Assembly (NCBI GenBank): GCA_000091205.1
Contig: AP006498.2
Direction: 5' to 3' (one strand)
Length of the DNA: 64,000 bases
Source of the DNA: Cyanidioschyzon merolae
Taxonomy: Eukaryota
How positions within the stretch are numbered: the first letter of the stretch is position 1; the number at the start of each line of letters is the position of its first letter. Below are positions 6,002-57,707 of the stretch, in pieces. The translations under genes and the position numbers were made by a program. The notes under the pieces are model-generated. The model was not told the DNA's origin and did not search any database. It worked only from the letters and a program-made list of their open reading frames with translations.

Positions 6002-6960
6002 CAGGCACCGGCAGTGAAACAGTTCACAGCATATGTTCTGTCAAACAGAAACCGATTATTGATGTGCGGGCTTCATATCAATTTTCATCAGTTTCCGTTG
6101 TAGTGACGGAGTGGAGGTTGCGGAACTGGTTCAGGGACGTAGGCAGGTACCCAAGCGCTGTGTTGCGACGCTAGCGCGCGCATCGCTGGATAGACTGGAA
6201 GAGAACGCTCGTCGACTTCATCCCCTGCATATAATTTGCAGTGAGCGTGCTCATGACGTGCGTTTCGATGTCGCTTGTGATACGGTACACCTATAGGGAA
6301 GAGCGCGCTGTAGAATTGAAGCTTTTCGCAAGTGCACTCGGGCGATGCGTAGACCTTGTCTTCTTCTAGTCATTCACGTATCCAAGATAGTCGTCGCAGG
6401 ACAAATGTGCAACGTTCAATGCCTGCAGTTTTCAATCTAGGCGCTCGAATTCGAGCACTTCATCTCAGACGGAAGCGCAGCTCGCAAACGCAACGGGAAA
6501 CAGTTCATGCACTTCCACATGCTGAACGCCTAGGTGTCTCCACCGTATCATATCTGTAACCTAGGAATTTAACGGTCTGCAGATCCGTTTGATCAATAGT
6601 CACATTCCAGCAGGCGATAAAGTACAGCTTCCAGGCGAACTTCTTGATGAGGAGTGACCCGAACTCTGCACTTGTGAGGGCGAAGCGTTTAGCGCCTTAT
6701 ATCCGGGATCGCCGGAGCTCGAACAATTCGGGCCTGAGGCTGCAAAACTTGGCCAACCTTGGGAAGTCACCGGGAGGCTGTACGCTGAGGGCAGAACCAT
6801 TCTCTGTTATTTATCCGTCATCATGGATGACCAAAGCTATTCTGGGCGTTTTCAGAAAAGCGCTGCAGGTTCGTATGCAAACCTAGACCCAGGTCATACT
6901 CGCGTAAGACTGAACCGGAGCAGATTCACTTTGGTAACTCGGACGCACACGCTGGAGCTT

Positions 6961-8291
6961 TGGTCACTTCCCACTGTGACCAACGCCAGGTTTTTCGAAC
7001 CTTCTCTGAGACTGCTTCGTTTTCCCCCCGCCTGAGTCCGGATAGAAAAACGCGGGCGTCTCCTTTCCCTGTACAACCGTTGTTAGCAGTCGAAAGATAT
7101 TCACGGCAGCTTCCGGGTCCCGGCTTCGATGCTTCCAGCTGCTATCCATGCAATGGTTGCACCGACGGTAGTTGCGTTGAACGCCTCGCTTGCCGTCTCC
7201 ACCTTGTTTCTATGCAACTTCGGTGTACCCTCGGCAACGGTGCCACTTGACTGTGAGCAGGTGTTCTCGAGTGTCCGCCACCACACCCATTCAGAGCGCC
7301 TCGCCATGCCACGTGAGCAACGCTCGCTTCACCGCTCGCTGTACGCTCTGGACGAGTACAGAAGGCTCCCGTGGGTGCCTCTTCCGTGTCTGCAGCCCAG
7401 TGCAGTGGCCCGTGACCATGGGCTCGTTCGAGGTAGTGCCCTCGCCGAGTACTCGCTCTGGTGCACATGCCGGCGCACGCCGTTCTGCTGGACACTAGAA
7501 CTTTGGATCGCGGAGTTCCCGATGACGGAGCAAGGACCGCATGGAAAAGCCAGGCTGGTGAGGAGGCCGTCCAGTCTCGATGCGTCTACGCTCCCTTCGC
7601 GCTACGCGGTGACGCATCGTGTAATGGAAGCGACCGCTGCGGTGATTCGAGGTCTAGTCCATGACCCTTTTGAATGCAGAGAGAAGAGCGGGGAGCCTCT
7701 CGGTGCATGTGCTGTGAACGTTATCAGACTGTTGCCAGGGTCCATATTGTCGACGACCACAAAGGCGGGCGGCTTTGTCATTCGAAAGGCATCGATTATT
7801 TGTCGTGACAAGTGCAGTGAAGCGTAGGCATGAGCTTGTGAACAGGTCGCCAAGCGACGATATCGAGTGTATTTCCCCGTCAGCCCAGCGGTGCGAATTG
7901 TTGCACCCACGAGTTGCCTCGGAACAGAGCGATCGCCATCTCGAAGAATGGATGATTAGAGCATGTCAGGCGTACACCGGGCGGAGCCGCTGGAAGCTTG
8001 TTGGCGTGATTGGATGCAGCAATTGGTTATTGTATGAATCCTCTTTCGAGGGCGTGGCATGTTGTCTTGGTTCCAATGAAGTACGGAATTCCGGCTTCGG
8101 TGCGTCGGAGCATAGGAGCATCGAAGGAAAGAGTCGTTCTGGAAACACGACTGAGCATCCCAGCACTACGTATGCATCCATAAACCCGTATTGCTGCATT
8201 TCGTATCCCAATGCTGTGCTTCTCAAAAAAAAAAGTCCAGAAAGATCGCTTACGAGAAACGGAGCGGGCCGTTCAGCGTGCCATTTTAATT
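6961..8291. repeat. Left arm of long inverted repeat pair A (~1331 bp), near-identical to the reverse complement of 9990..11317
   Basis: ORF translations from 6964..7149(-), 7129..7827(+), 7602..7910(-) and 7775..8341(+) recur almost residue-for-residue on the opposite strand at 11130..11339(+), 10452..10904(-), 10369..10677(+) and 9992..10504(-). Outer and inner boundaries come from direct reverse-complement comparison of the sequence. Only a few substitutions are seen, plus a homopolymer length difference (A10 at 8225..8234 versus T8 at 10047..10054). Confidence 0.85.
8225..8234. repeat. A10 homopolymer inside IR-A left arm (T8 in the right arm at 10047..10054)
   Basis: Direct read of the sequence. 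The length difference between arm copies shifts ORF frames between the two arms. Confidence 0.8.
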
Positions 8292-9989: not shown

Positions 9990-11317
9990 GATTAAAATGG
10001 CACGCTGAACGGCCCGCTCCGTTTCTCGTAAGCGATCTTTCTGGACTTTTTTTTGAGAAGCACAGCATTGGGATACGAAATGCAGCAATACGGGTTTATG
10101 GATGCATACGTAGTGCTGGGATGCTCAGTCGTGTTTCCAGAACGACTCTTTCCTTCGATGCTCCTATGCTCCGACGCACCGAAGCCGGAATTCCGTACAT
10201 CATCGGAACCAAGACAACATGCCACGCCCTCGAAAGAGGATTCATACAATAACCAATCGCTGCATCCAATCACGCCAACAAGCTTCCAGCGGCTCCGCCC
10301 GGTGTACGCCTGACATGCTCTAATCATGCATTCTTCGAGATGGCGATCGCTCTGTTCCGAGGCAACTCGTGGGTGCAACAATTCGCACCGCTGGGCTGAC
10401 GGGGAAATACACTCGATATCGTCGCTTGGCGACCTGTTCACAAGCTCATGCCTACGCTTCACTGCACTTGTCACGACAAATAATCGATGCCTTTCGAATG
10501 ACAAAGCCGCCCGCCTTTGTGGTCGTCGACAATATGGAACCTGGCAACAGTCTGATAACGTTCACAGCACATGCACCGAGAGGCTCCCCGCTCTTCTCCC
10601 TGCATTCAAAAGGGTCATGGACTAGACCTCGAATCACCGCAGCGGTCGCTTCCATTACACGATGCGTCACCGCGTAGCGCGAAGGGAGCGTAGACGCATC
10701 GAGACTGGACGGCCTCCTCACCAGCCTGGCTTTTCCATGCGGTCCTTGCTCCGTCATCGGGAACTCCGCGATCCAAAGTTCTAGTGTCCAGCAGAACGGC
10801 GTGCGCCGGCATGTGCACCAGAGCGAGTACTCGGCGAGGGCACTACCTCGAACGAGCCCGTGGTCACGGGCCACTGCACTGGGCTGCAGACCCGGAAGAG
10901 GCACCCACGGGAGCCTTCTCTACTCGTCCAGAGCGTACAGCGAGCGGTGAAGCGAGCGTTGCTCACGTGGCATAGCGAGGCGCTCTGAATAGGTGTGGTG
11001 GCGGACACTCGAGAACACCTGCTCACAGTCAAGTGGCACCGTTGCCGAGGGTACACCGAAGTTGCATAGAAACAAGGTGGAGACGGCAAGCGAGGCGTTC
11101 AACGCAACTACCGTCGGTGCAGCCATTGCATGGATAGCAGCTGGAAGCATCGAAGCCGGGACCCGGAAGCTGCCGTGAATATCTTTCGACTGCTGACAAC
11201 GGTTGTACAGGGAAAGGAGACGCCCGCGTTTTTCTATCCGGACTCAGGCGGGGGAAAACGAAGCAGTCTCAGAGAAGGTTCGAAAAACCTGACGTTGGTC
11301 ACAGTGGGAAGTGACCC
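9990..11317. repeat. Right arm of inverted repeat pair A (reverse complement of 6961..8291)
   Basis: See the left arm. The inner junction is at 9990/9991 (attaaaatgg) versus 8281..8291 (ccattttaatt). The outer junction is at 11317 versus 6961. Confidence 0.85.
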
Positions 11318-11709
11318 AGATTTACTGCGTACGCGATAGTAAGTAGACATGTTCCAGTTTAGGTCGATAAGGGTGTAAGGCACAGATACAGCGAATCTCG
11401 TGGAATACTACATGCGAAGGGCACCGCCTAGCGTACGCATGAGCTGCGCGTTGTACCCAAAACTGCAAAAGATTGCTCGCATGACTCAGATGCAGGTGCC
11501 TTGTCGGTAGGAAGTGCACATACGCGGCGTGCATGCGTCTCTTCTTGTCGTTGGCACGCTGCCAATGGCGGCTCTTGCATCACTGAGCACCTTCGACAGT
11601 TCGCTCGTACACGTCGTGCCCGAATAGAAATCTCGAAGCGCGAGGAGGACACGGTTCGGTGGTCGCTTTGAGGCGTGCACTGAGCGCCGCACCACAGCTG
11701 AACGCTGGC

Positions 11710-18384: not shown

Positions 18385-18650
18385 AGATTTGCCAACGGTT
18401 TCGGCTGCACGGAGCCTAGAGACAGGCATTCGCCGAGTTTTCCAGTCAGCTGCAAAAGGAAATGACCGATCAATCGCGTCGTTTGGTGCTAGCCTATGCC
18501 GCTGGACATGCTGCAGCGTACAATAGCTGCACTGGTGCTCCTTCGACAAGCGCGCGCACCAAGTACAGGAATCGACTCTGAACGAGTACCGTCAATGATT
18601 TCACGACGATTTAGGCGCATCACGACCACGGGTGTACACCAAAAACCTGC
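18385..18650. repeat. Diverged single-unit copy of the element that carries the 93-bp minisatellite at 37075..37740
   Basis: Hand alignment of gccaacggtttcggctgcacgg...gaaatgaccgatcaatcgcgtcgtttggtgctagcct...gtgctccttcgacaagcgcgcgcacc...gatttcacgacgatttaggcgcatcacgaccacgg against 37075..37330 (gccaacggtttcgtttcgaaggggctgcacgg...gaatatgaccaacgagttgcgtcgtttggaggtagcct...gtgctccttcgacgcgcgcgtgc...gatttccatcaatgcattcaggaggataaacgggcatcacaaacatgg) gives roughly 70-75% identity over about 250 bp. Confidence 0.55.
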
Positions 18651-19900
18651 ATAGAAGAAGAGAGTGAAACAGAGCCGCATCCGCCGGGTTGTGTAGGCAA
18701 GTTGAACTAACGTCGGTTAGGGAAGCAATCAAAGGTGCAAGTCGTGCTTTGGTACGCCTCCGCAAGCAACCATGCCCGCGAGCATGCTCTGCACGGAGAC
18801 TTGAAAGCCTGGATCAACATCCGGAAATATTTCGTGGATCTGAAGCATTCAGCGGCATTGTTTGGAGCAAACTTGTCACGAGAATATTGAGTACTCTTTG
18901 TTCGCATCATGCTGAAATACGGAAGACTTTCGCTGAGATGAAAACAGCACCCAGTCTACGAAGCATTGGATTCCAGCCCAGAAGAAGGCACAGGACCGGA
19001 ACGGTACGGTAAAGGCAAGCACTCTAGAACGGTTGCAGCGCTGCACAAATGTACACCGAGAACAAGTTCACTGCGCGATTGTTGAACGATGACGATATCC
19101 CATGATTCGGTATAAGTGAGCAGGTACTGGCGTGGAGCTCCCTGGCCCTCGAGGCTGTTCTTTCGCGTCTACGGCTTCCATTGTGACGACGCTGGAACCA
19201 TGCAGAACATTGTACTCGTGTTCCCAACAACACTTGTCAATCTACAATGGGCGGCTCATGCGTGTGGAACTGTTGCTGGGGTCGGAACGCGACCTGCGCC
19301 AGTCCAATGGTCTGCGTCGAGGCGACGCTGCCGGCACCCGGGACGAGTACGATCCGCCTCCGGCAAAATGGTTCTTCGCTTTGAGGCTGCTGAGAGACAC
19401 CACCAGCGGTCGTGAAGATCGTAAGGCTCCGTGCTGCGTTCAATATACGGCACTGAGAGGTGTTTTCGGGGGGTCAGGTGAACAAGTGCAGTTTTTGGAA
19501 GCGCGCTGACGACTGGAAACTGCTGTCCGACCCGTTTGTCGGAGCGAAGAACGCTGGTTGTGGCAGCCTTTCTGAGACTCGCTGGGCACCGCTACCGGCA
19601 ATGAAGCCACTTCTCGTTGCGTGGTGCTCTCAGCGGCCAGCATGGGTGTCTAGCGTCACAAGTTTGAGGCCTGTGTACTCTTCCGTAGATACGCGATGCG
19701 GTGCGTGCTGCCGAACTCGACACCGGCCACAGCGCGTACGACGATTGCGGAACAGTTGCAGGTCACGTGTGGTCGCCTCGGGCACCGAGGCTTCGGATCA
19801 CTCGCCAACTGGAGAACTGAAGCTCTCGAAACGATCGGGCGTTCGTGGACGGGTCTTTCTGTTGGCGGTGCCTTTCATCTGGTCCACATATTCTCCGAGC

Positions 19901-22201: not shown

Positions 22202-24390
22202 CCGTTCGAGGGCGCTGTGACTGTCATGCATTGCTTGATCGCTGCAATTTGTGTGTCCTGATCATACGTTCCAATAATCCCGCTCAGGCCGGGTGTGGAA
22301 TGTGACGCTGCCTGGCCTCGAAGAGTTCCTCGCATGTTGCTGGCGGCCAAGAAACATGCAGGGTGATGTGTTCGCCCAGGCTCGCGCTCGGCAGGCGTTT
22401 CAAGTGCATCGCGTGCAACCGCGTTGCTAGCGCCCAAAGTTAGCAACTGAGGGTCCTCAAAGCGCTTACGTATAGAGCTTGTAAAGACTTGTTTCATCCA
22501 GCTTTGCAGGTGCTAGCGTTGTCACCAATCGAAACGAAGCACTCAGCTCCGTGGCTTCGCCTTTGTTGTGGAGTCGGCAAGAGCGGAAGAGCGTTGCCCG
22601 GCAGCGCCTTGTCGACTATTCTCGTAGCAGTCACGAAGCAACTTCAGAGGTTCCTGGCAAGCGGACCAGTCTCGGTCGTGCTCGCCAAGGCAGGCCTCTA
22701 GTCGCTCGTACGCCTCCCTGCACCCGTGCAACTCGAGAACCTGCTCTATATCGCAAGACGTCGACTCAGAGTTTGTACGCATTTTGTTCTATAGCATTCG
22801 AGATAGATACCGCCTGAGCCTAGACTTGTACGCTATCAAGCTCTTGACGCAGCGCGCTTGCCGAAATAGGTTTTAACGGCGAGTACGCAGTCGAACGGAT
22901 GAACGACGCGCGGTTGCAGGGGTCGGCGCGTCGCGGATGCTGCGCGCAGCTTCCAGCTCAAGATCGCTTCTCCGCAGTGCGGCATCGCCGCTACCACAGT
23001 TATGAAGACGATCTTGTCTCGCGATCCCGATAGAGCACAGTGTAGTGCCGGGACGGTGGACTTGCGGACCGACGATATCGATCCAAACCGTCGGTAGAAG
23101 AACGTCCGCTGCACCGATTGGTTGCTGTGATGCATATCAACTCGAAGTTCGGGCCTAAGAAGCACCTGGACTGGTGTCAGCGCTATGGAGTTCGAGAAAC
23201 TAGCACCACTTGGAGTTGGTAACGCGTGCCGCGCTGGGTTGACGGTCTCTGGGCTGTTTGTAAGTTCGGCAAGTTTTGATATGTCTGTCGAGGTACCAGC
23301 GTGCGCCTTGCTCTGGAGATTTTGTAGAGCGTCATGGATAGCTCGAAGCCACCATGAACGCTTGATTTTTTGAAGTAAACGTTCTGCTTCTCGGATTTTC
23401 GGTGGTGCACCCGACGAAAAGACCCGTAAGACCTGAGTACGCGAAAGGAAAACGTGACCAAGGAACATTATCCAAGTGTAGCATGAGCGTTCTCAGCGAT
23501 TGCCCACTTCTCCATCATCGTTCAAACCGTCGCTTGTTTTTCTAATGCCACGAGCTCGTGGCTGGCTCACATCGAACTAGGCAGCACCCCAGGTGCAATG
23601 ATCCCAAAATATCAACAGGATGATGCGCCCAGCGCTGCGGATGAAATCATTACGGTTCGATTGCATCGTCCAAAACGCCTGTTGGACAATGTTTACATCT
23701 GAAACGCTCCCAGAAGACTGAAATCAGAGAGCATGAGCTCTTTTAAGCGGCGCCTTCCGTCATGTGCCTGGATGAATCGCAGGCTCGCGGTGACGATCTC
23801 AAACCAAGAGACTGTCACGAGCGATCGTTGATCGAGGACGCCTGCAGGCTTTGGCACCACAGCGTTCCAGCCGGAATGCGCATCAGGCGTCCAGGTCGGG
23901 CTCGCTGAACGATGTCGTGCTGTTTCGACGAGACTGCTATATGGGAATCGACTTGCACGTTATCGCGAGTGGAGCAGTCTCTACATGCAGTCGCGATTGC
24001 TCATGCATGCGCGCGTTATCCTGAAACAAGCTTGGAAACGCAGGATCTGTTGCAGCGCTTCAGTGGGCCCGAAACGGCTTATTACAGGGTCGTTCACCCT
24101 GCAACTTTAGCTGAGACGCGCTACCACGAGTGTGATCCATCTATCGTCATTAGTATGATGAAAAAAAATTGCGCCTATTGCATTAACCAGTGATGCTTCC
24201 TACGGTCCATGATTCGAACGATTCACTTTTCCCATCCTTTTCCGTCAAGCACGAAATCCGGGTGGAAAATACGCTTGCAGCATCCTTATATCACAACTTG
24301 AGCCTAGAGGTTGCACGCGCGAGTCCATCCATCATTGTCCGTGGAGAGTAGCCGCTGGAAAGGGCATTCCATTTCCGACGCCGCAGTCAG

Positions 24391-25255
24391 CACGAATGTC
24401 AGACATAAATGGGAGGGATCCACGAATAGAACGCGGGCGGTGGCTCTGAAATTAGTGTGCCTCGCAATGCCACTGGCACCAGCGTTGGCGGGCCTATGCT
24501 GCGACTGCGTCCTAGTCCCCGCTCCGCCATCTCCGACTTGGAATACGCAAGTCGCTCGCATGCCCCCGATTCCTTCAGTAGGAATCTGGTGATTTCGGTG
24601 GCAGCCTCCGGGCGCCGATGTCGCAGTTCCCGACTGTTGTCGACGCGTTTCGTGTGCAGACGATGGTTGCATCTATGCGTTGCGTGTCATTCACATGCGC
24701 CTTACATTCAGCCTCACTGCGACCTTCGCAACCGGGTGACACCTGACTTTGGACGCGTTTCCCCGTATGCCTACATCATGCTGTCCTGACCCAAAGGCCA
24801 CGAAGACGTTGCGCGTGAACACTTGCTGCATCTCTCGGTACACGCTTTGTACGTGTACAGAAGGCTCGCCTCGATGCCCGCCTGAACGTTTGCGCCCGGT
24901 GCTGCGCGCTACGATCACGGGTTTCTTCTGGGCGATCCTGTAGGGCGCGTATACTGTCCGCTACACGCGCTCGCTCTTCTACTCGCAAAGCGATTTCTGG
25001 GAAGCGAAGTTGACCGTGATGTACCGAGCACCGGAGGGGAATCCTTGCTGAAGATCAAGCAGCGTAATAAGGATGCGTCTAGGCTCCCTGCATTCGTGCA
25101 GAGCTTCGATGCATGCTGCCATGCAAGCGATCGCTGCGATGACTCAAGTCCACGCCCGAGACCCATTTTCACGCGAACAGAAGAGACCAGAGCGCCTGGA
25201 AGCATATTCCGTGGTAGGTATCATGCCATTGGCGAATGTCGTTTCGCCGATGGCG
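24391..25255. repeat. Left arm of inverted repeat pair B (~865 bp), reverse complement of 29270..30133
   Basis: ORF translations 24304..24672(-), 24457..24789(+), 24691..24918(-), 24915..25205(-) and 25045..25359(+) recur on the opposite strand at 29852..30313(+), 29735..30067(-), 29606..29833(+), 29319..29609(+) and 29132..29479(-). Boundaries come from direct reverse-complement comparison of the sequence and show a few mismatches only. Confidence 0.85.
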
Positions 25256-25870
25256 ACTCGGAAATTCGGATTTGTCTTTCGAACGGAAGCGATTACTTGA
25301 CTTGCCAAAGCTCAGCCAACCCTCTGCATGAATCTGTTCAACAAGTCGTCTCGAGATGAGGTATAGCTCTTTCTCGTCGTCATTCCGGCGGCGCGAAACT
25401 CTTCAACGAAGAGTGCCTATGGAAGCGAACGATCGAAAACTTCAATAACCCGTGATTTGAGCACGCTACTAGCCATGAAAGCAGTAGAGTGCGGACTTGT
25501 ACACCTGAATAGGATCATGGTATTCAATGTTTTACAAACCCTTGTTCGAAGTCGTCGCGTATCATCTTGATTCCTATGACGTGAGGAATTCCAGACGCAA
25601 AGCGTTGAAGCAGCCACCCACTGAAAAACAGCCGCGAATCCTTAGAAGTCGTACGAATCCATACGCCGTGATTCCTAGACTTTGAATACCGACGCTTTGC
25701 ATCTATACATGGACCGGGAGCAAATCGAATTGCAGGAACCGAGCGAGCAGCCCAATATTCCTCATAAATCCGACACGGGCATAGCGTGCGGTCGAACACG
25801 GGTCAGTGGTGGAGCATCCGCTGGATGCACCTGTCCTGGCGATCGCCAAGTCGATACTGTTTGCCTATCT

Positions 25871-27520
25871 TTAGAGTATAAAGAAACGCACAATGCGTTC
25901 AGCATAGGGACGGACCAGTTCCAGCTGCTGAACGATGTCATTCTTGATAACCAGGTTCACGAAGATGTAGGCCGCGATGACAGCAAGTGCCAAGCGACCG
26001 AGAACTTTCTCCGCCAGACCGGAACGGACAACATCCCGTACGTTCGTACGGATCCAGGTCACGAGCTCCTCGTCGCTCATGACACTAAGCTGCTCCCGAA
26101 TGAGTTTCAGTTCATCGGCCAGTGGCTTTGGAGCAATCGTGCCTGTTGTCTTGTCGTTTTCAAGCACCGGAGGTTTTGTGTCGGATATGGACCGAGCGCT
26201 TGCCGACCAGTCTCTGGTGTTAGCGTCGATGGGCACTTGCGTTGTGCTTGCTGCGCGCATGTCTTGAATGCTTTGTTGTAAACGAAACACGACATCCTCG
26301 CGTTTCTTGAGTCGCTCAACAGCCGCCTTCCAGAGCTTCGCACCCTCGGTTTCGGCGGTGTAGAGCTCACCGTCCCAATCGTAGCCACCAGTGAAAAGCT
26401 GGGAGAGTTCGCGGCGCAAGTTTTCGTCGAGAGGGCGCCCACGTAGACTTGTTATCCCACGCTTTTCTGCTTCTCGAATTGAGAATTCCGCATCTGGGTT
26501 CGACGGATCCAAGATTCCTTCTAGGAAGGGCGCCAGCGCCTTTCTCGCTGAAGCAAGGTCCTCGACTGCTGCTTCCATAAAGGCGCGACGTTGTTCAGGA
26601 GTGGCCAGTCGCATGGCGCGCTCTGCCTCTTCCGTGGGTTGCTCCGTCAGTTTCGATAGGGACGCATATTTGCACAGAATGGCTTCAATGTCGAGCCTCT
26701 CGCTTTTCAGCTTCTGTTCGAACTCACTAAAGTTACGCTTGCATATCTCCTCCAGCTTCCGCTCAAACTCTTCTTGATATGTTTCCCAGGACAGTTGGGG
26801 GTCTTCAGTGATCACCTCGTCATCGGGACGCCCGAGCGCCGCCAAACGTCGCTGGAACTGAGCCCAAGCCGTCGCTACACCACTTGCCACGGCAGCTGTC
26901 TCCGAGGCGTGCTCGGTGTGGATACGCCGCAGTGCTGTTTCGAGCTGTGCGCTTGTCATCTTCAGAGTCTTGTTTGCCTGCTCGCGGCTGTAGCCCATGA
27001 ACGCGTTTGCGCGCGCAGCTAGATACAAGAGCTGCAAGCGCAAAAGCAACAACAAGTTGCCGAAAACGCGAATCACGAGCGCTGCTGTATGCTGCGGCTC
27101 AGCCTCGCTGGACGGATCTCTAGTCCAGAAAGCGCTCTGCGTTCGTGAAGATAACTCTGGTTGCGTGCCCCTGACGTGACGCACGCGATCGCCGGCAAAG
27201 GTTCCAGATTTGACAAGGTTTCGAGATAGCGTTCCGACCTGTGCCCTGAATTCACGAGCGACTCGAGTTCCAGCGTTCGCGAAATAGCGTAACGCCTGTG
27301 ATGCGATGCTCAAAAACTTCTGACTCGCCTCGTGGAACAGGCTTACATTCGCACTGGCCACGACGAGGAGCGCTGCTGAGATAATCAAGAAGAAGAGTAG
27401 CGGAATGATGTTGGCGAGGGCTTTCCTGTTCGACGGCGATACTGAAGCACCAGAGGGATTCGTCACGATCATGGCTATTGTTGCCCGTTGAGCTTCGACT
27501 CGTGCATTGGTGTAGAGCAT
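25871..27520 (-). CDS. Coiled-coil membrane protein with N-terminal signal-anchor-like helix and C-terminal transmembrane tail (function unknown)
   Basis: It lies within the 735-aa ORF 25871..28078. The first ~186 aa of that ORF look like non-coding read-through. From the Met at ~27520 (MLYTNARVEAQRATIAMIVTNPSG...) there is a hydrophobic helix (IIPLLFFLIISAALLVVASA), then about 400 aa of heptad-like charged sequence, and a C-terminal hydrophobic anchor (LALAVIAAYIFVNLVI). No enzymatic motif is recognised. Confidence 0.45.
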   Translation of the reverse strand: MLYTNARVEAQRATIAMIVTNPSGASVSPSNRKALANIIPLLFFLIISAALLVVASANVSLFHEASQKFLSIASQALRYFANAGTRVAREFRAQVGTLSRNLVKSGTFAGDRVRHVRGTQPELSSRTQSAFWTRDPSSEAEPQHTAALVIRVFGNLLLLLRLQLLYLAARANAFMGYSREQANKTLKMTSAQLETALRRIHTEHASETAAVASGVATAWAQFQRRLAALGRPDDEVITEDPQLSWETYQEEFERKLEEICKRNFSEFEQKLKSERLDIEAILCKYASLSKLTEQPTEEAERAMRLATPEQRRAFMEAAVEDLASARKALAPFLEGILDPSNPDAEFSIREAEKRGITSLRGRPLDENLRRELSQLFTGGYDWDGELYTAETEGAKLWKAAVERLKKREDVVFRLQQSIQDMRAASTTQVPIDANTRDWSASARSISDTKPPVLENDKTTGTIAPKPLADELKLIREQLSVMSDEELVTWIRTNVRDVVRSGLAEKVLGRLALAVIAAYIFVNLVIKNDIVQQLELVRPYAERIVRFFIL

Positions 27521-28269
27521 GCTCGCCGTCGACGCTCGAGTCTCTCCCGGGAACGGGTCACCACTAGGGATAGATACCGCTCGGCAGCATGCAGCAGTCC
27601 TTGCCTTCTTTGCGCAACCATGACGCTGTATGGTCACCATCGCGCGCCTTTTGCGAGCATAGCTATCTGTTTCAGAAAATTTTTCCCCAGAGAGCAACTT
27701 AGTTTGAAGCTTGATCCTTTTGTGCACAGTGCGTTTCGGCGCCTGCTCGTTCAATTTTCGTACGAAATAAGGCTCACGGAATGCAAATACACTCAGCAGG
27801 TCTTTGCGTCGATGCTCGGACTTGAGCGTCAATCGCCATCGACAAGGCAGCGCGTTTTCGCAAAAGCGCCACGTGCGTATACCTCCTAAAAACGAACAGA
27901 GAAAGCCGTTTCGTGTGGCGGCATTCTTGCTTATCGTAAACTCGGCCCCTAAACTTTGTTTTGCCGGTTGGAAAACGCGCAACCGTTCGCTTGTGGTTGC
28001 TAGCGACCCTGGGTTCGCTGCCCGCTCGCCAGCACCGAGCAGCCCCAGTGACTGGTGCAGCCAAGCTAACTCGCCCATGGTATGTGCACGTTCACCTCAG
28101 CTTCTAGTTTCTTTCGCACACGATGTCTCTGCATGAGGCTGAACCGTCGCCCCTCGTATCCTATGAAACGTACTTTTGAGCGTTTCCGCGCACCCAGCAC
28201 TGCCTTCGCCGCCCTAGCACTATTCAAAAGCGCGCTCTTTGAGCGGCCTTCAAATCGGCAATCCGTAAG

Positions 28270-28895
28270 AGCATCCGCGCGATCGACGATGACTGCTGAG
28301 CACTCAGCGATGCCTAGGTCAGACTTGTCTCAAATGCAAGTCTTTCACCTCAATTGTGTTCCACAGCTAGGCGCTTGTCATGAACTGCTTTTTCGCGGTT
28401 TATAGGCGACGCCTTCCAAATGCGTCCATTTGATGACATGAAAAGGCTAAGGGGAAGGTATGGACATGCAGGAGGGGGTTTCGAGGGACCGATGTTGCCG
28501 TGTGCTGGGAGAAGTACGAAAAATATCCCCTTTTCACGGACTATCAAGCAAAGAAGAGCAAGTGACGTAGAAGAGTACGAAAAGAGCATCCGCGCGATCG
28601 ACGATGACTGATGAGCACTCAGCGATGCCTAGGTCAGACTTGTCTCAAATGCAAGTCTTTCACCTCAATTGTGTTCCACAGCTAGGCGCTTGTCATGAAC
28701 TGCTTTTTCGCGGTTTATAGGCGACGCCTTCCAAATGCGTCCATTTGATGACATGAAAAGGCTAAGGGGAAGGTATGGACATGCAGGAGGGGGTTTCGAG
28801 GGACCGATGTTGCCGTGTGCTGGGTGAAGTACGAAAAATATCCCCTTTTCACGGACTATCAAGCAAAGAAGAGCAAGTGACGTAGAAGAGTACGA
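28270..28895. repeat. Tandem duplication, 2 copies of a ~313-bp unit
   Basis: The stretch agcatccgcgcgatcgacgatgactg[c/a]tgagcactcagcgatgcctaggtcagacttgtctcaaatgcaagtctttcacctcaattgtgttccacagctaggcgcttgtcatgaactgc...aagagcaagtgacgtagaagagtacgaa occurs at 28270..28583 and again at 28584..28895. Identical peptides appear in ORFs 28350..28589(-) and 28665..29096(-). Confidence 0.85.
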
Positions 28896-29269
28896 AGAAA
28901 GAGAGTGGAGATAGACGAGGAAGGTTTTCGTCCCACGAGCCAATGACGGGGCTGTAATGGCACAAAGGACAAGCGTTCGAGGAATCCTTACAGAGGTGAA
29001 TCGAATCAGCTGCACTGCATACATGAAATTCGTAAAACGAGACTTCAAAGCCGCCATCAATGTCAGACGATGTCTGGTACTGAAGACGAGACCCACTGAG
29101 CTGAACCGAGAGAACTTCTTGAGGCGTCAGCTCAGACTCGAAGTTTGCGCGGAGAAACTGAAACCAATAGCAGGCGGCCGGTCCAAAAAGCAGGCAGACC
29201 TCTGCGAAAGGATGCGCGTATACAACCTACGTGATCGCGAGCTGCTCTTCTTTTTGCCGACCATAGATA

Positions 29270-30133
29270 AGATTCGGTGAAACGACATTTGCCAATGGCA
29301 TGATACCTACCACGGAATATGCTTCCAGGCGCTATGGTCTCTTCTGTTCGCGTGAAAATGGGTCTCGGGCGTGGACTTGAGTCATCGCAGCGATCGCTTG
29401 CATGGCAGCATGCATCGAAGCTCTGCACGAATGCAGGGAGCCTAGACGCATCCTTATTACGCTGCTTGATCTTCAGCAAGGATTCCCCTCCGGTGCTCGG
29501 TACATCACGGTCAACTTCGCTTCCCAGAAATCGCTTTGCGAGTAGAAGAGCGAGCGCGTGTAGCGGACAGTATACGCGCCCTACAGGATCGCCCAGAAGA
29601 AACCCGTGATCGTAGCGCGCAGCACCGGGCGCAAACGTTCAGGCGGGCATCGAGGCGAGCCTTCTGTACACGTACAAAGCGTGTACCGAGAGATGCAGCA
29701 AGTGTTCACGCGCAACGTCTTCGTGGCCTTTGGGTCAGGACAGCATGCTGTAGGCATACGGGGAAACGCGTCCAAAGTCAGGTGTCACCCGGTTGCGAAG
29801 GTCGCAGTGAGGCTGAATGTAAGGCGCATGTGAATGACACGCAACGCATAGATGCAACCATCGTCTGCACACGAAACGCGTCGACAACAGTCGGGAACTG
29901 CGACATCGGCGCCCGGAGGCTGCCACCGAAATCACCAGATTCCTACTGAAGGAATCGGGGGCATGCGAGCGACTTGCGTATTCCAAGTCGGAGATGGCGG
30001 AGCGGGGACTAGGACGCAGTCGCAGCATAGGCCCGCCAACGCTGGTGCCAGTGGCATTGCGAGGCACACTAATTTCAGAGCCACCGCCCGCGTTCTATTC
30101 GTGGATCCCTCCCATTTATGTCTGACATTCGTG
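29270..30133. repeat. Right arm of inverted repeat pair B
   Basis: See the left arm. The outer junction is at 30133 (..tctgacattcgtg) versus 24391 (cacgaatgtcaga..). Confidence 0.85.
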
Positions 30134-30775: not shown

Positions 30776-31558
30776 GTGATCAGGGTGTTCAAGATGTTCG
30801 GGTTTGTTATCCCAGCGAATAGGGCGAGGTTGCACCTTCACTACCCACAACCGAAGAACAATAACGGTTGTGTCTCAAGGCGTCGGTTAGGAGCGCTGCA
30901 AAAACCGCAGCTGCGCAAGCCCTGCCCGGTGGTCGCGTGCGCTCCGGGCAACAATACGCCGCCGTCGGTACCCGAAAAGACTACGGCTCGTCTGTCGCTC
31001 GCGCAGCGCTTGTCGATACCGCTGCTTACGATGACGACAACGATACCTGGCGTTGTTCTGGCTGCAGAGGAAACGGCGGCCCCGGAGTCACCTCTGAAAG
31101 CGCTCTTCAAAAGCTTGCCGCTGTCGCTTGTGCATCCACTGGTCATGGACGGTGTCCTGCTCGGAACGCTGTACGCATTCTATCTGGGGTACCAGGCGCG
31201 TACGATGCGTACGACCAAAGACAAGGAACTGAAGATGAAGCTGGCGCAGGCCAAACCCGGCGATCGGCACTATCAAATCGCGAGCATCCTTCTCGCCGTG
31301 ATGACGGTGACCACATTCGAGGGCATGGCCAATACGTACACTCGTACTGGGAAACTCTTTCCGGGACCGCATCTGTACGTTGGTCTGGCCTCGGTGGCGC
31401 TCATGAGCATGATGGCTAGCCTGGCACCGGCGATGCGGCGGGGGAATACCGCAGCGCGCAACGCACATTTTGCCATGGCGTTCGCAGTTACTGGCGGGCT
31501 TGTCTGGCAGCTTCAGAGCGGTTTCGAAATCGTGCTTAAGCTTTTAGGATGGAAGTAG
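30776..31558 (+). CDS. Small multi-pass membrane protein (about 4 TM helices in the C-terminal 150 aa) with a basic/hydroxylated N-terminal extension; DUF4079-like by recall, uncertain
   Basis: Helices: VHPLVMDGVLLGTLYAFYLGY, IASILLAVMTVTTFEGMA, GPHLYVGLASVALMSMMASL and FAMAFAVTGGLVWQL. The N-terminal 90 aa are rich in R, S, T and P, resembling an organellar targeting sequence. The start is uncertain (alternatives MFGFV... or MTTTIPG...). Confidence 0.4.
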   Translation: MIRVFKMFGFVIPANRARLHLHYPQPKNNNGCVSRRRLGALQKPQLRKPCPVVACAPGNNTPPSVPEKTTARLSLAQRLSIPLLTMTTTIPGVVLAAEETAAPESPLKALFKSLPLSLVHPLVMDGVLLGTLYAFYLGYQARTMRTTKDKELKMKLAQAKPGDRHYQIASILLAVMTVTTFEGMANTYTRTGKLFPGPHLYVGLASVALMSMMASLAPAMRRGNTAARNAHFAMAFAVTGGLVWQLQSGFEIVLKLLGWK

Positions 31559-34506: not shown

Positions 34507-37261
34507 GTCTATTGTTTAGAGGAGCGCAATTACCCTGCTTGGCAAGTGGGGTACCAGTGCGTCTGTCCAAAAGTTGGACACGTACGCGGTGCTTGCACCG
34601 AAGCGAGAAGCAGCGTGCAGTGCTTCTACGTTGAAACGAAGAAGCGATGCCTGGCCATCGCGCACGCGGAGCGTACCCGGAACGACAGCACTCGTGCCTA
34701 CCAGCTTCCAAGGATGGACGCTGGTAGGCACGCTGCATAAGAGTGCCTTGCGTTTCCGGGGAACGTAGGTCGTTTCAGTGTAGAGGTGCTGTGGATATCG
34801 AGTGCGCTCTGGTATGGTAGAAGCCTGCCGTCTCGGGTCGCGGGAGGATCGACTCACGAGAGGCGTCTCGTTTCCGCTCGGACCAGAACTCTTTATGTAT
34901 AAAGCCTCGAGTTGGGAGAAATGTAAGAATTCCTTCAAGAAAACAGGAATTCTGGATATGCATCCGGTCCACGGGCTGCGTCTTTGATAGATACGTGCTC
35001 GCGTCGAATGCTTCGTGGTGTAGCACCCGTACGAGTCACCACTTGCCACCGGGAAACGCATGTGCTGCGGAGCGCTACAGTGCAGAACACTGGCCAAGCA
35101 CGAGCACCTCGCGAGGTGTCTGGGTCCGCGGTTGGACCGCACCGGAGCATCCTACGGTGCAGAACCTGGTACCAGCTGGTTATGCTTTCTGGAACGCGTA
35201 CTGGCGAGAAACCTTGGTAATACCTCGAATGAAGCGCACCCAGGATAGGACGCATTCGCACTCCTACCGCGTCAAATCCTAGATTGCAGGCACAAGCGAG
35301 CATGAAAACGTTGACAGATGAGGCAAAATCGAAGCAGAATCGACGTAGCCCTGAAACTCCGATTCAAATGCATGATGATGAAGCGAACTACAATGGCCTC
35401 GAGGCAGCATTGACGTCTCCGTAAAACATTTGACAAGGAATCAAGGTAGCTGCCTGGTTCATGACCTGGCGCGAGCAGAGCTCGTGCTCTGGACGCTGGT
35501 GCGTCGGATCCATCAACCGCATCAAGCGAGGCTCTGTTGCAGGAGCAGTTTGCGCGTAACATGCTTCTTGACGCTGAGGAGTCGAAGAATGTAATGGAAT
35601 GCTCCGAAATTATGCACGCGTTACCTGTAATCCGGGAAACGACCCCAGTCCGACGAAAACGCATCCACCTGCCGCTCATCGTAGTGCATGAGGCGTCCAG
35701 GGGATCATTTGGGATGCACTGGTTATACTCAGATTAGCGCATTCCGGAATACCTGTATCAGCATGCCCGCTTCGCTTTCGTATGATGCTCTCGCAGTAGT
35801 ACTCGTAAGACGCACGTTCATCCCAGTCGATTAGACTTCATTCGGCAGTAGTGGAATACATTTTCGGTGGGCAATCAAAAAGGGGCAAACCGCTGTTCGC
35901 AAAGTCGTAACAGTCAAGCATTCCGGGAACATCAACGTTCGCAGCGACGCTACCGTTTGGTCACATACAAATCATGAAACGGACGCGATCGCTCAACACA
36001 TGATCCACAGTTGAAGCACGCTTCTTGGCTTTTTATTCCCACAATCTTCGGTGCTGCTCATGGGGAACGTCGCTTTCGATCACTAAAAAGCGATAAGAGG
36101 ATGATGTGGCTGAAATAGGTACTGAGCTGCGCTGCGTGGCATCCCGTTCTAAGTGCTTCACTCCAGCCGAAGGCGTGTTCTCTATTGTGAAGAGCCACGC
36201 TGGCACTTACCGGTCCATAGATGCGTCGCTCGTTCCTATGACACCAAAGTCTTTCGACAGGCGCTTCTCTAACGTCACCAATCCTAAACCGCTGTATTGC
36301 TTCGCTGCGAATGCGCGGGAGTGAGCGGAAAACGCGCTCCGGTCCGTGGGCATGCTCGCGACCGCGAGGGTGACGAAAAGATACTTGAGGAAACGGAGAT
36401 CCATAGATAGATATGACGAGTCTCAGACCTATAGTCGAATCTGTTCGTCTGAATGCCGAGTAGAAAGCGGGTAAAGCGCAAAGCGATTACGTTCCTATCA
36501 CTCCTTCAAGTCAAGGTGGCAGAGGAGAGGGAGTCGGTCTCTGCTAACGAGCATGCAGCATTCGAACAGCTTCACGAGGACCGTAGGCGGAGCTCTTTCC
36601 AGGTTCCGCTTTAACAAGCAGGAAGTGCAATGAAGTTTCCAGAAACAACGGAGACCAGTAGACTGTCATTATGCACGCACTCTGTGAAACCCAGGCCGGG
36701 TCGAGCAACGAGACTCATGATCAGCCGCTCACGGTATATGAATCCGACGAATATCTAATGGAATGGATCTCGTGTTGGAGAACATCATGCCCGTAGCCGT
36801 ACCTCAAGGACGAGACGCCGGAGCCAGAGACCTGAACGGAGAGCAGATGAAGCTGCTCAAATATCCCAGGGCTCGGGATCGTCAGGAGTTGGACACAATG
36901 AAAAGCCACGAGGCATACCAAAAAGAGGAACAACTAGGTCAAGAGCCTCCCCGACGCTCCGAGCACCATACGGAGCAGATACGGAAGCTAGATACGCTTC
37001 ATTCAGAGCGAGTAAGTGAGCGCCCAAATGGCTCATGCGGACTATCTTTGGCAAGCGTACATGGGATCGCGCTGGGCTCGCCAACGGTTTCGTTTCGAAG
37101 GGGCTGCACGGGGAGCGTATTCACCATTTCTTCGATGAGTTGCGAAAGAATATGACCAACGAGTTGCGTCGTTTGGAGGTAGCCTGCAGCGCTTGACACG
37201 CTGGAGGTTACAAAGCCTGGAATCCTGTGCTCCTTCGACGCGCGCGTGCAACGCGTGCAGG

Positions 37262-37740
37262 AAACGTTTCTGGACGATTTCCATCAATGCATTCAGGAGG
37301 ATAAACGGGCATCACAAACATGGATGCTCGCTGCAAATCGTACAAAAGTAGCGTTTGGTATCCTGTACGATTTCCATCAATGCATTCAGGAGGATAAACG
37401 GGCATCACAAACATGGATGCTCGCTGCAAATCGTACAAAAGTAGCGTTTGGTATTCTGTACGATTTCCATCAATGCATTCAGGAGGATAAACGGGCATCA
37501 CAAACATGGATGCTCGCTGCAAATCGTACAAAAGTAGCGTTTGGTATTCTGTACGATTTCCATCAATGCATTCAGGAGGATAAACGGGCATCACAAACAT
37601 GGATGCTCGCTGCAAATCGTACAAAAGTAGCGTTTGGTATTCTGTACGATTTCCATCAATGCATTCAGGAGGATAAACGGGCATCACAAACATGGATGCT
37701 CGCTGCAAATCGTACAAACCTAGCGTTTGGTATCAAGCTG
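37262..37740. repeat. Minisatellite: 93-bp unit x ~5 tandem copies (units start 37276, 37369, 37462, 37555, 37648)
   Basis: The unit is gatttccatcaatgcattcaggaggataaacgggcatcacaaacatggatgctcgctgcaaatcgtacaaaagtagcgtttggta[t/c]tctgtac. Copies 2-4 are perfect and the terminal copy diverges. Both strands are open through the array (ORFs 37246..37788 + and 37208..37717 -), so the reading frame is uninformative. Confidence 0.9.
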
Positions 37741-52408: not shown

Positions 52409-52650
52409 GGAGGCTGGCTAGCGGCCGCACGCCTTTTCGGCTGCTGCCAGCAAACGAAACGTCTTTGAGGTTGCTGGAGCAGTACGACCAGATACTCGAC
52501 AATACCCGGAAGTACAGATCGGATCGAAATAAGCGTTCTGACAACGAGTGCCAAACGCGTGCTGTATACGATAAGCACAGGCGGCTGTGGCGGCGGCACG
52601 CCTGCCGATCTGGTGGCATTTTCGCAGGCAGGCATTCGCATCTGTCCACT

Positions 52651-53077
52651 TGGGTGACAGGCGCATGGAAGCCTGCAGTGCTCGTTAGGTTTCTGGATTT
52701 CGATTCTTTCCGAACTTTAGAAATGTACAGTATCAAAAAGCAGGAATGCGAGCTTACGGATCCGCGAGTCATTCAAGAATTTGCGCTCGTCTGCTCCAAG
52801 TGACTCCTGCGACACCCTGCCGCCCGAATGTGTGACGTCACTGGGAATCCAGATGACTCGCGACACCTACCAGCGAGGACTGATTCCTAAAATTAAAGAC
52901 ATGTTGAGCCACGATGGATACGTACGGGTTCCTGCTGCTCGTTCTTACGAAGAAAATGCCAATGGCAAGCGAGCCTCACGCGACAAATCCGTCTGGTGCA
53001 GGCCGTGGGTCAGCGATCGCCGCCAACGTCGGATTCGGGTCTTGAACGCTGCCAGCAACATCCACCAACTGCTGACA
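52651..53077 (+). repeat. Direct repeat copy 1 (427 bp), about 98% identical to 57281..57707; termini 5'-TG...CA-3'
   Basis: Base-by-base comparison shows about 6 mismatches over 427 bp. Identical peptides appear in ORFs 52258..52803/52781..53089 and 57143..57433/57411..57992. It contains the palindromic octamer TGACGTCA at 52833..52840. It lies about 240 bp 5' of the 1605-aa gene start. Confidence 0.9.
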
Positions 53078-57250: not shown

Positions 57251-57280
57251 GCGGCAACAGCGCTGCAGCGAATCCCCTTT

Positions 57281-57707
57281 TGGGTGACAGGCGCATGGAA
57301 GACTGCAGTGCTCGTTAGGTTTCTGGATTTCTATTCTTTCCGAACTTTAGAAATGTACAGTATCGAAAAGCAGGAATGCGAGCTTACGGATCCGCGAGTC
57401 ATTCAAGAATTTGCGCTCGTCTGCTCCAAGTGACTCCTGCGACACCCTGCCGCCCGAATGTGTGACGTCACTGGGAATCCAGATGACTCGCGACACCTAC
57501 CAGCGAGGACTGATTCCTAAAATTAAAGACATGTTGAGCCACGATGGATACGTACGGGTTCCTGCTGCTCGTTCTTACGAAGAAAATGCCAATGGCAAGC
57601 GAGCCTCACGCGACAAATCCGTCTGGTGGAGGCCGTGGGTCAGCGATCGCCGCCAACGTCGAATTCGGGTCTTGAACGCTGCCAGCAACATCCACCAACT
57701 GCTGACA
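57281..57707 (+). repeat. Direct repeat copy 2 (427 bp), same orientation as 52651..53077, beginning about 30 bp 5' of the MSH2 ORF start
   Basis: See copy 1. The TGACGTCA octamer is at 57463..57470. Confidence 0.9.

What the first reader, a model, noticed from the sequence alone, without database searches (positions are those of the whole stretch)
24391..30133. Second inverted-repeat cassette: 0.86-kb arms enclosing a 4-kb core with one coiled-coil membrane protein gene
The architecture matches cassette A but the arm sequences are unrelated: 24391..25255 against the reverse complement of 29270..30133, with about 99% identity. The core holds the 25871..27520(-) coiled-coil tail-anchored protein gene and a 313-bp tandem duplication (28270..28895). 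Two independent, young, long inverted-repeat pairs each bracketing a single gene within 64 kb is unlikely by chance. It suggests either an active foldback-like element family with variable arms, or a genome prone to palindromic duplication.
Basis: seen in the sequence. Interest (0 to 1): 0.65.

Follow-up and report, generated by a model that had tools for sequence, protein, structure and literature searches.

The report
Inverted repeats flanking a flippable gene
In the red alga Cyanidioschyzon merolae, one conserved gene sits between two near-identical 860-bp inverted copies of old non-coding repeat DNA, and this one-gene segment points the opposite way in a sister genus, so it is best read as a recombination-prone invertible segment and not as a transposon.

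Summary
The inverted repeat is real. Arms 24391-25250 and 29274-30133 differ at 4 of 860 positions and lie 4023 nt apart. The window is C. merolae 10D chromosome 16. The core holds CMP105C (25871-28078, minus strand, 735 aa) and a 315-bp tandem duplication.

- The arms of cassettes A and B are related. They share about 59% identity over about 1.2 kb and belong to one non-coding repeat family, "U".

A foldback transposon is not supported:
- There are no target-site duplications or shared termini.
- The right arm copies only part of a resident U copy.
- Both cores hold ancestral syntenic genes.

The arms evolve in concert. They differ by 0.5% within 10D but by about 2% from a wild strain that has the same repeat boundaries.

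With all eleven neighbouring genes collinear, the CMP105C orthologue is inverted in Cyanidiococcus, which has no repeat at this locus. In a third lineage the gene has the 10D orientation and is bracketed by its own, unrelated 248-nt inverted repeat. One metagenome contig shows the flipped isomer, but short-read assemblies cannot phase 860-nt arms.

Best reading: a local inverted duplication, homogenised by gene conversion, that allows inversion by homologous recombination. This is a known kind of structure and of moderate interest.

The parts
24391..25250 (.). Left arm of the inverted repeat (860 nt). It is the outer part of a resident, full-length copy of non-coding repeat family U.
   Evidence: Searches give the arm alignment, with 4 mismatches against the right arm. 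One search finds no coding signal. Searches show homology to the cassette A arm.
25251..25704 (.). Continuation of the resident U copy inside the core. It is single-copy within cassette B and homologous to the inner part of cassette A's arm.
   Evidence: A 6969-8223 aligns with B 24462-25704, and the homology runs across the arm's inner edge.
25871..28078 (-). CMP105C (BAM81750), 735 aa. It is a protein family known so far only from cyanidiophycean red algae, with two predicted hydrophobic helices, a long helical middle and a highly conserved C-terminus. Its function is unknown.
   Evidence: One search gives the exact match. Searches give the orthologues at 55%, 47% and 26% identity. One search finds no Pfam family. 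One search gives a helical but low-confidence model.
28267..28896 (.). A 315-bp tandem duplication (2 copies, 2 mismatches) upstream of CMP105C. Every relative's contig carries a single copy.
   Evidence: Logan contigs L009, L010 and L012 pass through without a branch.
28766..29206 (.). A segment of the core that has a 74%-identical paralogue next to RPL3 and CRT-like genes elsewhere in a related genome. It represents another dispersed repeat, called W here.
   Evidence: L008 q2955-3400.
29274..30133 (.). Right arm of the inverted repeat. It is a copy of only the outer 860 nt of unit U and has sharp edges.
22543..22782 (-). Left boundary marker outside the invertible segment. It is a conserved small twin-Cx9C ORF that keeps the same orientation in all three genera.
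30794..31558 (+). Right boundary marker outside the invertible segment. It is the DUF4079 gene (BAM81751), which keeps the same orientation in all three genera.
6944..8290 (.). Cassette A left arm, a full-length U copy that is a 59%-identical relative of the cassette B arm.
9991..11335 (.). Cassette A right arm, the inverted partner at about 98-99% identity. The core between the A arms holds methyltransferase gene BAM81745 (8615-9607, plus strand).
52650..53077 (.). Direct-repeat copy D3a (428 nt), which is partly related to U. Together with D3b it brackets the MutS-family gene at 54185-57250(-).
57280..57707 (.). Direct-repeat copy D3b (5 mismatches against D3a). It lies within a longer resident U-like copy, because homology to U continues to 57786.

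Best explanation
Cassette B is a genuine feature of C. merolae chromosome 16. An 860-bp piece of a resident, non-coding, old dispersed-repeat copy (family U, left of CMP105C) was duplicated in inverted orientation into the intergenic region on the other side of that gene. Since then the two arms have been kept nearly identical by intrachromosomal gene conversion. Because they are long, near-identical and inverted, they are substrates for homologous recombination, and a crossover between them flips the 4-kb core that carries the complete CMP105C gene with its own upstream and downstream DNA. The flip is expected to be nearly neutral for expression. The steps shown here are the structure itself, the relation of the arms to family U and their non-transposon character, concerted evolution of the arms, and opposite orientation of this one gene between genera while all neighbours stay collinear. 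The inferred steps are that the orientation change happened by recombination between the arms, and that flipping continues within populations.
For: 1. The repeat is real and present in wild strains.
2. The arms are non-coding. They are unannotated: BAM81745 to BAM81751 are consecutive genes and none lies in an arm.
3. The arms belong to family U. A-left and B-left share 59% identity over 1170 nt (E=1.5e-64), with stop codons in all frames.
4. The duplicated segment ignores the ends of unit U. B-right holds only U's first ~790 nt, while B-left continues to about 25704. In the same way, D3a copies only 428 nt of a longer resident copy at D3b.
5. There are no TSDs or TIRs and no residual homology beyond the sharp edges.
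6. Concerted evolution: the 10D arms differ at 4 of 860 sites. The arms of the L017/L018 strain differ from either 10D arm at 16-18 of 860 sites, yet have identical repeat boundaries. All 16 sites at which L018's arm differs from both 10D arms are sites where the two 10D arms agree. Diagnostic sites are mosaic between strains.
7. Inversion: with MT, MutY, OTU, GRAM, EamA, CHCH, DUF4079, PLP-decarboxylase, adh_short, PEMT and oxoprolinase all collinear and in the same orientation, the CMP105C orthologue is on the opposite strand in Cyanidiococcus yangmingshanensis (L014).
8. The inverted interval is at most 3.6 kb.
9. A third lineage (L015) is sister to Cyanidiococcus by 7 genes. There the gene has the 10D orientation and is bracketed by its own inverted repeat of 248 nt, 92% identity and a 4259-nt spacer. 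Distances to the gene are similar: 1265 and 811 nt, against 1195 and 620 nt in 10D.
10. Contig L018 reads right flank, arm, core from its left end, then the next arm, which is the flipped isomer.
Against: 1. Short-read assemblers cannot phase across 860-nt near-identical arms. L018 (flipped) and the five contigs with the standard arrangement (L005, L008, L009, L029, L017) may therefore all be arbitrary graph paths, so flipping within the species is unproven.
2. Cyanidiococcus, the genome with the flipped gene, has no repeat, so recombination between arms cannot be shown for that event.
3. No outgroup could be obtained, because L019 is too short. The ancestral orientation is unknown.
4. The L015 arms share no detectable sequence with the 10D arms. 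A common origin of the repeat cannot be distinguished from independent origins.
5. By a rough count (1 of about 11 genes), the coincidence in L015 has p of about 0.1.
6. Cassette A's gene has the same orientation in 10D and Cyanidiococcus.
7. The arm sequences taken from metagenome contigs may be collapsed consensus of both arms, which weakens the site-by-site conversion argument. It does not weaken the 0.5% versus 2% contrast.
Confidence: 0.55

Rival explanations
1. The inverted repeat is a by-product of an inversion, not its cause. Under the staggered-break model, an inversion of the gene segment with staggered single-strand breaks at one breakpoint, followed by fill-in, duplicates the 860 nt between the nicks and leaves it in inverted orientation at both ends of the inverted segment.
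For: 1. The arms have sharp edges, no TSDs, and boundaries unrelated to the ends of repeat unit U.
2. The gene orientation in 10D is opposite to that in Cyanidiococcus, which has no repeat, as expected for a pre-inversion state.
3. L015 would then be a second, independent inversion with its own unrelated arms, which explains the lack of arm homology between the two lineages.
4. Inverted duplications at inversion breakpoints are documented in Drosophila (PMC3355041, listed).
Against: 1. It needs two independent inversions of the same gene, in the 10D and L015 lineages, given the tree (10D,(L014,L015)).
2. It does not explain cassette A, whose gene has the same orientation as in Cyanidiococcus.
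3. It does not explain the direct-repeat pair around MutS.
4. It does not by itself explain concerted evolution of the arms, although conversion could follow formation of the repeat.
5. If L018 is real, flipping occurred after the repeat existed.
Confidence: 0.22
2. Two independent insertions, or local hops, of a mobile member of repeat family U landed in opposite orientations in the two intergenic regions next to CMP105C. Under this reading the orientation difference between genera is unrelated to the repeat.
For: 1. U is a discrete repeat family with at least three loci in 64 kb.
2. C. merolae has 12.7% repeats, against 0.59% in Cyanidiococcus (PMC9812998).
3. Local hopping would explain why the partners lie exactly one gene apart.
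Against: 1. No individual copy has TSDs or TIRs.
2. B-right and D3a end at points unrelated to U's ends.
3. Partners are about 99% alike while different loci are only about 60% alike. Three anciently diverged copies would each have had to move recently.
4. The outer termini of the A and B arms share no motif.
5. No transposase is present in the window.
Confidence: 0.1
3. Cassettes A and B are foldback-type or composite transposons that carry a passenger gene between long terminal inverted repeats.
For: The architecture is arm, single gene, inverted arm, and it occurs twice in 64 kb with arms of one family.
Against: 1. The 'passenger' genes (the methyltransferase and CMP105C) sit at the same syntenic positions in Cyanidiococcus and L015, which lack these arms.
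2. There are no TSDs.
3. The arm extents do not respect the family's ends.
4. No copy of either cassette was seen in another context in any fetched contig.
Confidence: 0.04
4. The structure is an assembly artefact or collapsed allelic sequence in the 10D reference.
For: None was found. Palindromic misassemblies do exist in general.
Against: 1. There is a 4-kb unique spacer, and the arms are 99.5% identical, not 100%.
2. Independent assemblies of wild strains contain core-arm-flank for both arms: L005, L009 and L029 for the left arm, and L017 for the right arm.
3. Other contigs stop about 30 nt inside the arm edge, as expected at a true repeat.
4. The 10D sequence is a finished reference assembly (PMC1955436).
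Confidence: 0.01

Closest known systems
Inversions mediated by non-allelic homologous recombination between inverted segmental duplications, such as human polymorphic HsInv inversions (Aguado et al. 2014, PMC3961182)
   Same: In both cases long, highly identical inverted repeats bracket a unique segment. Both orientations are found between or within species. Breakpoints lie in the repeats. The arms exchange sequence by gene conversion. The inversion mostly relocates intact genes without disrupting them.
   Different: The scale here is much smaller, with 0.86-kb arms and a 4-kb single-gene core in a 16.5-Mb haploid algal genome. Within-species polymorphism is not demonstrated here. The genome with the opposite orientation has no arms left.
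Inverted duplications generated at inversion breakpoints by staggered breaks (Drosophila; e.g. PMC3355041)
   Same: The result is an inverted segment flanked by inverted copies of ordinary local sequence, with sharp edges and no TSDs. The orientation differs from that of a related species lacking the duplication.
   Different: That model makes the repeat a consequence of one inversion. It does not predict concerted evolution, the direct-repeat pair around MutS, or a repeat-flanked gene (cassette A) that is not inverted.
Foldback (FB) and composite transposons
   Same: Long inverted arms surround a central segment that can contain a gene, and the arms of different copies belong to one family.
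   Different: Here there are no TSDs, no conserved termini and no transposase. The arm boundaries do not respect the repeat unit. The central genes are ancestral residents of the locus.
Flip-flop inversion between large inverted repeats of plastid genomes, and site-specific invertible segments (2-micron FLP/FRT, bacterial invertons)
   Same: An inverted repeat brackets a segment that exists, or can exist, in two orientations. In plastid genomes the repeat copies also evolve in concert.
   Different: This is a nuclear locus. No dedicated recombinase and no short recombination sites were found. The whole gene, with its promoter region, lies inside the segment, so no on/off switch is expected.
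The 253-copy, 3.2-kb interspersed repetitive element of C. merolae (Nozaki et al. 2007, PMC1955436)
   Same: It is an old, non-coding-looking dispersed repeat that fills intergenic regions of the same genome.
   Different: That element fits family V in this window (16113-19122, 35817-38139, 59776-62227). It does not fit family U, the source of the arms. No U-V similarity was detected.

Membership tests
Foldback / TIR-type or composite transposon | Target-site duplication flanking the element or each arm | tested here: not met
   no direct repeat lies adjacent to the outer edges of cassette A or B, or around any individual U/D3 copy.
Foldback / TIR-type or composite transposon | Conserved terminal sequences shared among family members, with copies ending at the family's termini | tested here: not met
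   the outer 100 nt of the A and B arms are not similar (z=1.7). B-right and D3a end inside the unit.
Foldback / TIR-type or composite transposon | The element, with its cargo, is absent from the orthologous site of relatives or present at non-syntenic sites | tested here: not met
   the 'cargo' genes (methyltransferase, CMP105C) occupy the same syntenic positions in Cyanidiococcus and L015. Only the arms are missing or different.
Foldback / TIR-type or composite transposon | Transposase encoded in the element or elsewhere in the genome for this family | tested here: inconclusive
   no transposase domain occurs in the window's ORFs of 200 aa or more. The rest of the genome was not available.
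NAHR-type invertible segment (inversion mediated by inverted repeats) | Long inverted repeats of high identity bracketing a unique segment | tested here: met
   860 nt, 99.5% identity, 4023-nt spacer.
NAHR-type invertible segment (inversion mediated by inverted repeats) | Both orientations of the bracketed segment observed among related genomes with collinear flanks | tested here: met
   the gene is on the minus strand in 10D and L015 and on the plus strand in Cyanidiococcus, with eleven neighbouring genes collinear. The inverted interval is at most 3.6 kb.
NAHR-type invertible segment (inversion mediated by inverted repeats) | Breakpoints map within the repeat arms, with both isomers carrying the arms | tested here: inconclusive
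   L018 shows the flipped isomer with arms, but it is a short-read contig that cannot be phased. Cyanidiococcus has no arms.
NAHR-type invertible segment (inversion mediated by inverted repeats) | Sequence exchange (gene conversion) between arms | tested here: met
   arm-to-arm divergence within 10D is 0.47%, against 1.9-2.1% between strains that share the same repeat boundaries. Diagnostic sites are mosaic.
Staggered-break inversion with breakpoint duplication | The arm sequence is single-copy, at one breakpoint only, in the uninverted ancestor | not testable with these tools
   Intergenic DNA of Cyanidiococcus and L015 no longer aligns with that of 10D. No close relative lacking one arm was recovered.
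Site-specific invertible switch (inverton, FLP/FRT-like) | A dedicated recombinase, short specific sites, and a promoter or gene part outside the invertible segment | tested here: not met
   Searches find no recombinase domain. The core contains the whole CDS plus 1.2 kb upstream and 0.6 kb downstream.

The most novel reading that the evidence does not exclude
C. merolae, and at least one other cyanidioschyzonacean lineage, may have a systematic process that copies pieces of intergenic repeat DNA across exactly one neighbouring gene, in either orientation. This window alone has three such young pairs in 64 kb. The inverted pairs would then persist for long periods through concerted evolution as standing flip-flop sites. 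Under this reading the repeat around CMP105C pre-dates the split of Cyanidioschyzon from the Cyanidiococcus/L015 clade and has driven recurrent single-gene inversions. That would make such pairs a main engine of the micro-inversions seen between these very compact genomes.
Probability: 0.15. Interest if true: 0.6.

Novelty: new member of a known kind. Interest (0 to 1): 0.4.

Why it matters
C. merolae is a model organism with a finished, extremely compact genome and highly efficient homologous recombination. A catalogue of gene-bracketing repeat pairs would have several uses:
- It would identify loci that can invert (inverted pairs) or delete and duplicate (direct pairs) spontaneously. This matters for strain stability, gene targeting and interpretation of re-sequencing data.
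- It would explain part of the doubling of intergenic length relative to Cyanidiococcus.
- It would offer a tractable haploid system for measuring rates of gene conversion and inversion between repeats.

For this particular locus, the practical message is that the orientation of CMP105C may differ between strains, and that short-read assemblies cannot determine it.

Tried and rejected
1. Rfam and tRNA scans of the window gave no hits, so the arms are not known RNA genes.
2. Codon-model scoring and ORF look-ups gave no coding signal and no annotated protein in the arms. tblastx between the A and B arms shows stops in all frames.
3. A protein search with the longest arm ORF (A arm, 232 aa) found only its own 90% cluster, so it says nothing about genome-wide dispersal of U.
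4. For an outgroup orientation, the only contig carrying the distant homologue P0052 is 2.6 kb and has no neighbouring genes.
5. AlphaFold2 on CMP105C with 5 sequences gave pLDDT 41.7. That is too poor for a fold search, so none was run. Pfam gave nothing above threshold, and no paper mentions CMP105C.
6. L008 seemed to show a different upstream neighbour (RPL3/CRT-like). The junction lies in a 74%-identical paralogous repeat, exactly where identity jumps to 100%, so the contig is probably chimeric. It was not used as evidence of rearrangement.
7. More arm-spanning contigs were sought through DUF4079 and CMP105C variants. None crossed the right arm, and one more standard left-arm crossing was found (L029).
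8. A search for residual homology beyond the arm edges and for TSDs or TIRs was negative.
9. A search for a special feature at the recurrent contig break near 29552/24972 found nothing.


Full report
**Source and observation**

The core ORF is a 100% match to CMP105C (BAM81750) of Cyanidioschyzon merolae 10D, on a 908,485-bp contig whose CMP gene prefix points to chromosome 16. The window has the expected features of this genome. GC content is about 55%, and long intronless ORFs lie on both strands, including 5-oxoprolinase, MutS, MutY and a PLP-decarboxylase. There are no tRNA or Rfam hits.

The inverted repeat is real. Its arms are 24391-25250 and 29274-30133, each 860 nt, with 4 mismatches and a 4023-nt spacer. 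The 315-bp tandem duplication lies at 28267-28896. Cassette A is also real, with arms 6944-8290 and 9991-11335 around a methyltransferase gene.

**What the arms are**

The arms carry no coding signal under a codon model trained on the window's secure genes. None of their ORFs is an annotated protein. Accessions BAM81745 to BAM81751 are consecutive and account for the methyltransferase, MutY, OTU, GRAM-domain, EamA, CMP105C and DUF4079 genes.

A 6969-8223 aligns collinearly with B 24462-25704 at about 59% identity over 1170 nt (E=1.5e-64). Translated matches occur in all frames and contain stops, so the similarity is at the DNA level. I call this roughly 1.3-kb non-coding unit U.

The A-B homology runs about 450 nt past B's inner arm edge into the core. 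B-left is therefore a resident full-length U copy, and B-right holds only U's outer part.

A third young pair exists. It is 428 nt long, has 5 mismatches, and is in direct orientation (52650-53077 and 57280-57707). It brackets the MutS gene and is partly related to U. Again one partner lies in a longer resident U-like copy and the other is a sub-segment copy.

The window also holds another old family, V, with three copies of about 2.5-3 kb at about 60% identity. V fits the 253-copy, 3.2-kb interspersed element described by Nozaki et al. 2007 (PMC1955436). Cho et al. 2023 report 12.7% repeats in C. merolae against 0.59% in Cyanidiococcus, and intergenic regions twice as long (PMC9812998).

**Not a transposon**

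- No target-site duplications flank the cassettes or any single copy.
- There are no terminal inverted repeats within copies.
- The outer ends of the A and B arms share no motif.
- No residual homology extends beyond the sharp arm edges.
- No transposase or recombinase domain is found in the window's ORFs.
- Both cores contain genes that sit at the same syntenic positions in other genera.

**The repeat in wild strains and concerted evolution**

Metagenome and Logan assemblies contain strains 98-99.7% identical to 10D.

- Contigs L005, L009 and L029 cross the left arm from the core into the left flank.
- L017 crosses the right arm from the core into the right flank.
- L010 enters the right arm from the core.
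- L003, L004, L023 and L025 stop about 30 nt inside the right arm's outer edge, as de Bruijn assemblers do at a repeat.

The repeat therefore exists, with the same boundaries, in diverged strains.

The arms of the L017/L018 strain differ from either 10D arm at 16-18 of 860 sites (1.9-2.1%). The two 10D arms differ from each other at only 4 sites (0.47%). All 16 sites at which L018's arm differs from both 10D arms are sites where the two 10D arms agree. The four diagnostic sites are mosaic between strains.

A repeat that is older than the strain split, yet more uniform within a genome than between strains, is the signature of gene conversion between the arms. One caveat applies: arm sequences from short-read contigs can be consensus of both arms.

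**Inversion between genera**

A sensitive search found orthologues of CMP105C. Two of them lie on long assemblies.

L014 is Cyanidiococcus yangmingshanensis 8.1.23 F7. Its neighbouring genes are methyltransferase (+), MutY (-), OTU (+), the 363-aa gene (-), EamA (+), the CHCH-containing ORF (-), DUF4079 (+), PLP-decarboxylase (-), adh_short (+), PEMT (-) and oxoprolinase (+). All have the window's order and strands, but the CMP105C orthologue is on the plus strand instead of the minus strand. DNA alignments confirm this. The inverted interval is at most 3.6 kb, lying between the conserved CHCH ORF and DUF4079. L014 has no inverted repeat there, and its spacers are only 426 and 568 nt.

L015 is GCA_041825655.1, an unnamed lineage. 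It is sister to Cyanidiococcus in all seven genes compared. Its gene has the 10D orientation and is bracketed by its own inverted repeat of 248 nt, 92% identity and a 4259-nt spacer. The distances to the gene resemble those in 10D: 1265 and 811 nt, against 1195 and 620 nt. A third partial copy of this repeat lies nearby. The L015 arms share no detectable sequence with the 10D arms.

By a rough count, the chance that the only inverted gene among 12 is one of the two flanked by inverted repeats is about 0.17. The chance that L015's single repeat pair brackets this same gene is about 0.1.

**A possible flipped isomer**

Contig L018 (8.4 kb) reads right flank 33857->30134, then an arm, then the core from 25251 upward to 29273, then 111 nt of the next arm. 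This is the inverted isomer. Five other arm-spanning contigs show the standard arrangement.

Both isomers contain exactly the same junction k-mers, and the wild arms are essentially identical. Short-read contigs therefore cannot establish linkage across an arm. This evidence is suggestive only.

**Mechanism**

The best-supported account has three steps:

1. A local inverted duplication of part of a resident U copy was placed across one gene.
2. Gene conversion has kept the arms uniform.
3. The arms serve as substrates for homologous recombination that flips the core.

The main rival is that a staggered-break inversion created the arms. This fits the sharp edges and the repeat-free, oppositely oriented Cyanidiococcus locus. 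It needs two independent inversions of the same gene, and it does not cover cassette A or the direct pair around MutS.

How the duplicates arise one gene away, in either orientation, is not established. Template switching during repair, or a larger duplication followed by loss of the redundant gene copy, are both conceivable but untested.

**The gene**

CMP105C is known so far only from cyanidiophycean algae. Its orthologues are 55%, 47% and 26% identical. It has a poorly conserved N-terminal third, a hydrophobic helix near residue 230, a long helical region, and a very conserved C-terminal hydrophobic helix and tail. It has no Pfam family, and the AlphaFold model was unusable (pLDDT 41.7). 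Because the whole gene and its upstream region lie inside the core, flipping should not act as a switch.

**Verdict**

The transposon reading is rejected. The locus is a small nuclear example of a well-known class: an invertible segment bracketed by inverted repeats that evolve in concert. It comes with a clear cross-genus orientation difference and sits in a genome that appears prone to one-gene-spanning local duplications. Interest is moderate.

Noticed in passing
window 22543-22782 (-): A 79-aa ORF with twin C-x9-C motifs. Its Pfam CHCH match (E=5e-4) is below the curated cut-off. It is 77-84% identical at the protein level to sequences in Cyanidiococcus (L014 8875-9069) and L015 (13339-13521). 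It appears to be unannotated in 10D, because no accession falls between BAM81749 and BAM81750. It is likely a real small mitochondrial intermembrane-space-type protein gene.
   Followed up: partly
window 16113-19122, 35817-38139, 59776-62227: Three copies of about 2.5-3 kb of an old repeat family at 58-63% identity fill large gene-free intergenic regions. They fit the 253-copy, 3.2-kb interspersed element reported by Nozaki et al. 2007, but the WSV486-like ORF was not checked.
   Followed up: partly
window 52650-53077 and 57280-57707: A 428-nt direct repeat pair (5 mismatches) brackets the MutS-family gene at 54185-57250(-). It is partly related to the U family of the cassette arms. Recombination between the two copies would delete or duplicate the gene.
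   Followed up: partly
window 37175-37825: This is a tandem array of 93-bp units. The relatives' contigs (L002, L020, L021, L023) carry about three fewer units (37362 joins 37640). This is either a copy-number polymorphism or assembler collapse.
   Followed up: no
window 28267-28896: The 315-bp tandem duplication upstream of CMP105C is single-copy in every relative's contig. That includes k=31 Logan contigs, which would branch at a duplication junction. It is probably specific to the 10D lineage.
   Followed up: partly
L008 1-3400 and window 28766-29206: Contig L008 joins RPL3 and CRT-like genes to the CMP105C core. The join passes through a 74%-identical paralogue of window 28883-29206, and identity jumps to 100% exactly at the start of the 315-bp unit. 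This is either a chimeric assembly through a dispersed repeat or a real recombinant.
   Followed up: partly
window ~29551-29553 (left-arm equivalent ~24972): Two independent contigs end at the same point inside the arm. L010 approaches from the core side and L024 from the flank side. No hairpin or repeat was found there. Strain SNPs cluster at 24972 and 24976.
   Followed up: partly
L015 1694-1903, 3649-3824, 6914-7054, 18138-18300: The unnamed sister lineage (GCA_041825655.1) has several short tandem duplications (70-95 nt periods) in its intergenic regions. Cyanidiococcus has almost none in the same region.
   Followed up: no
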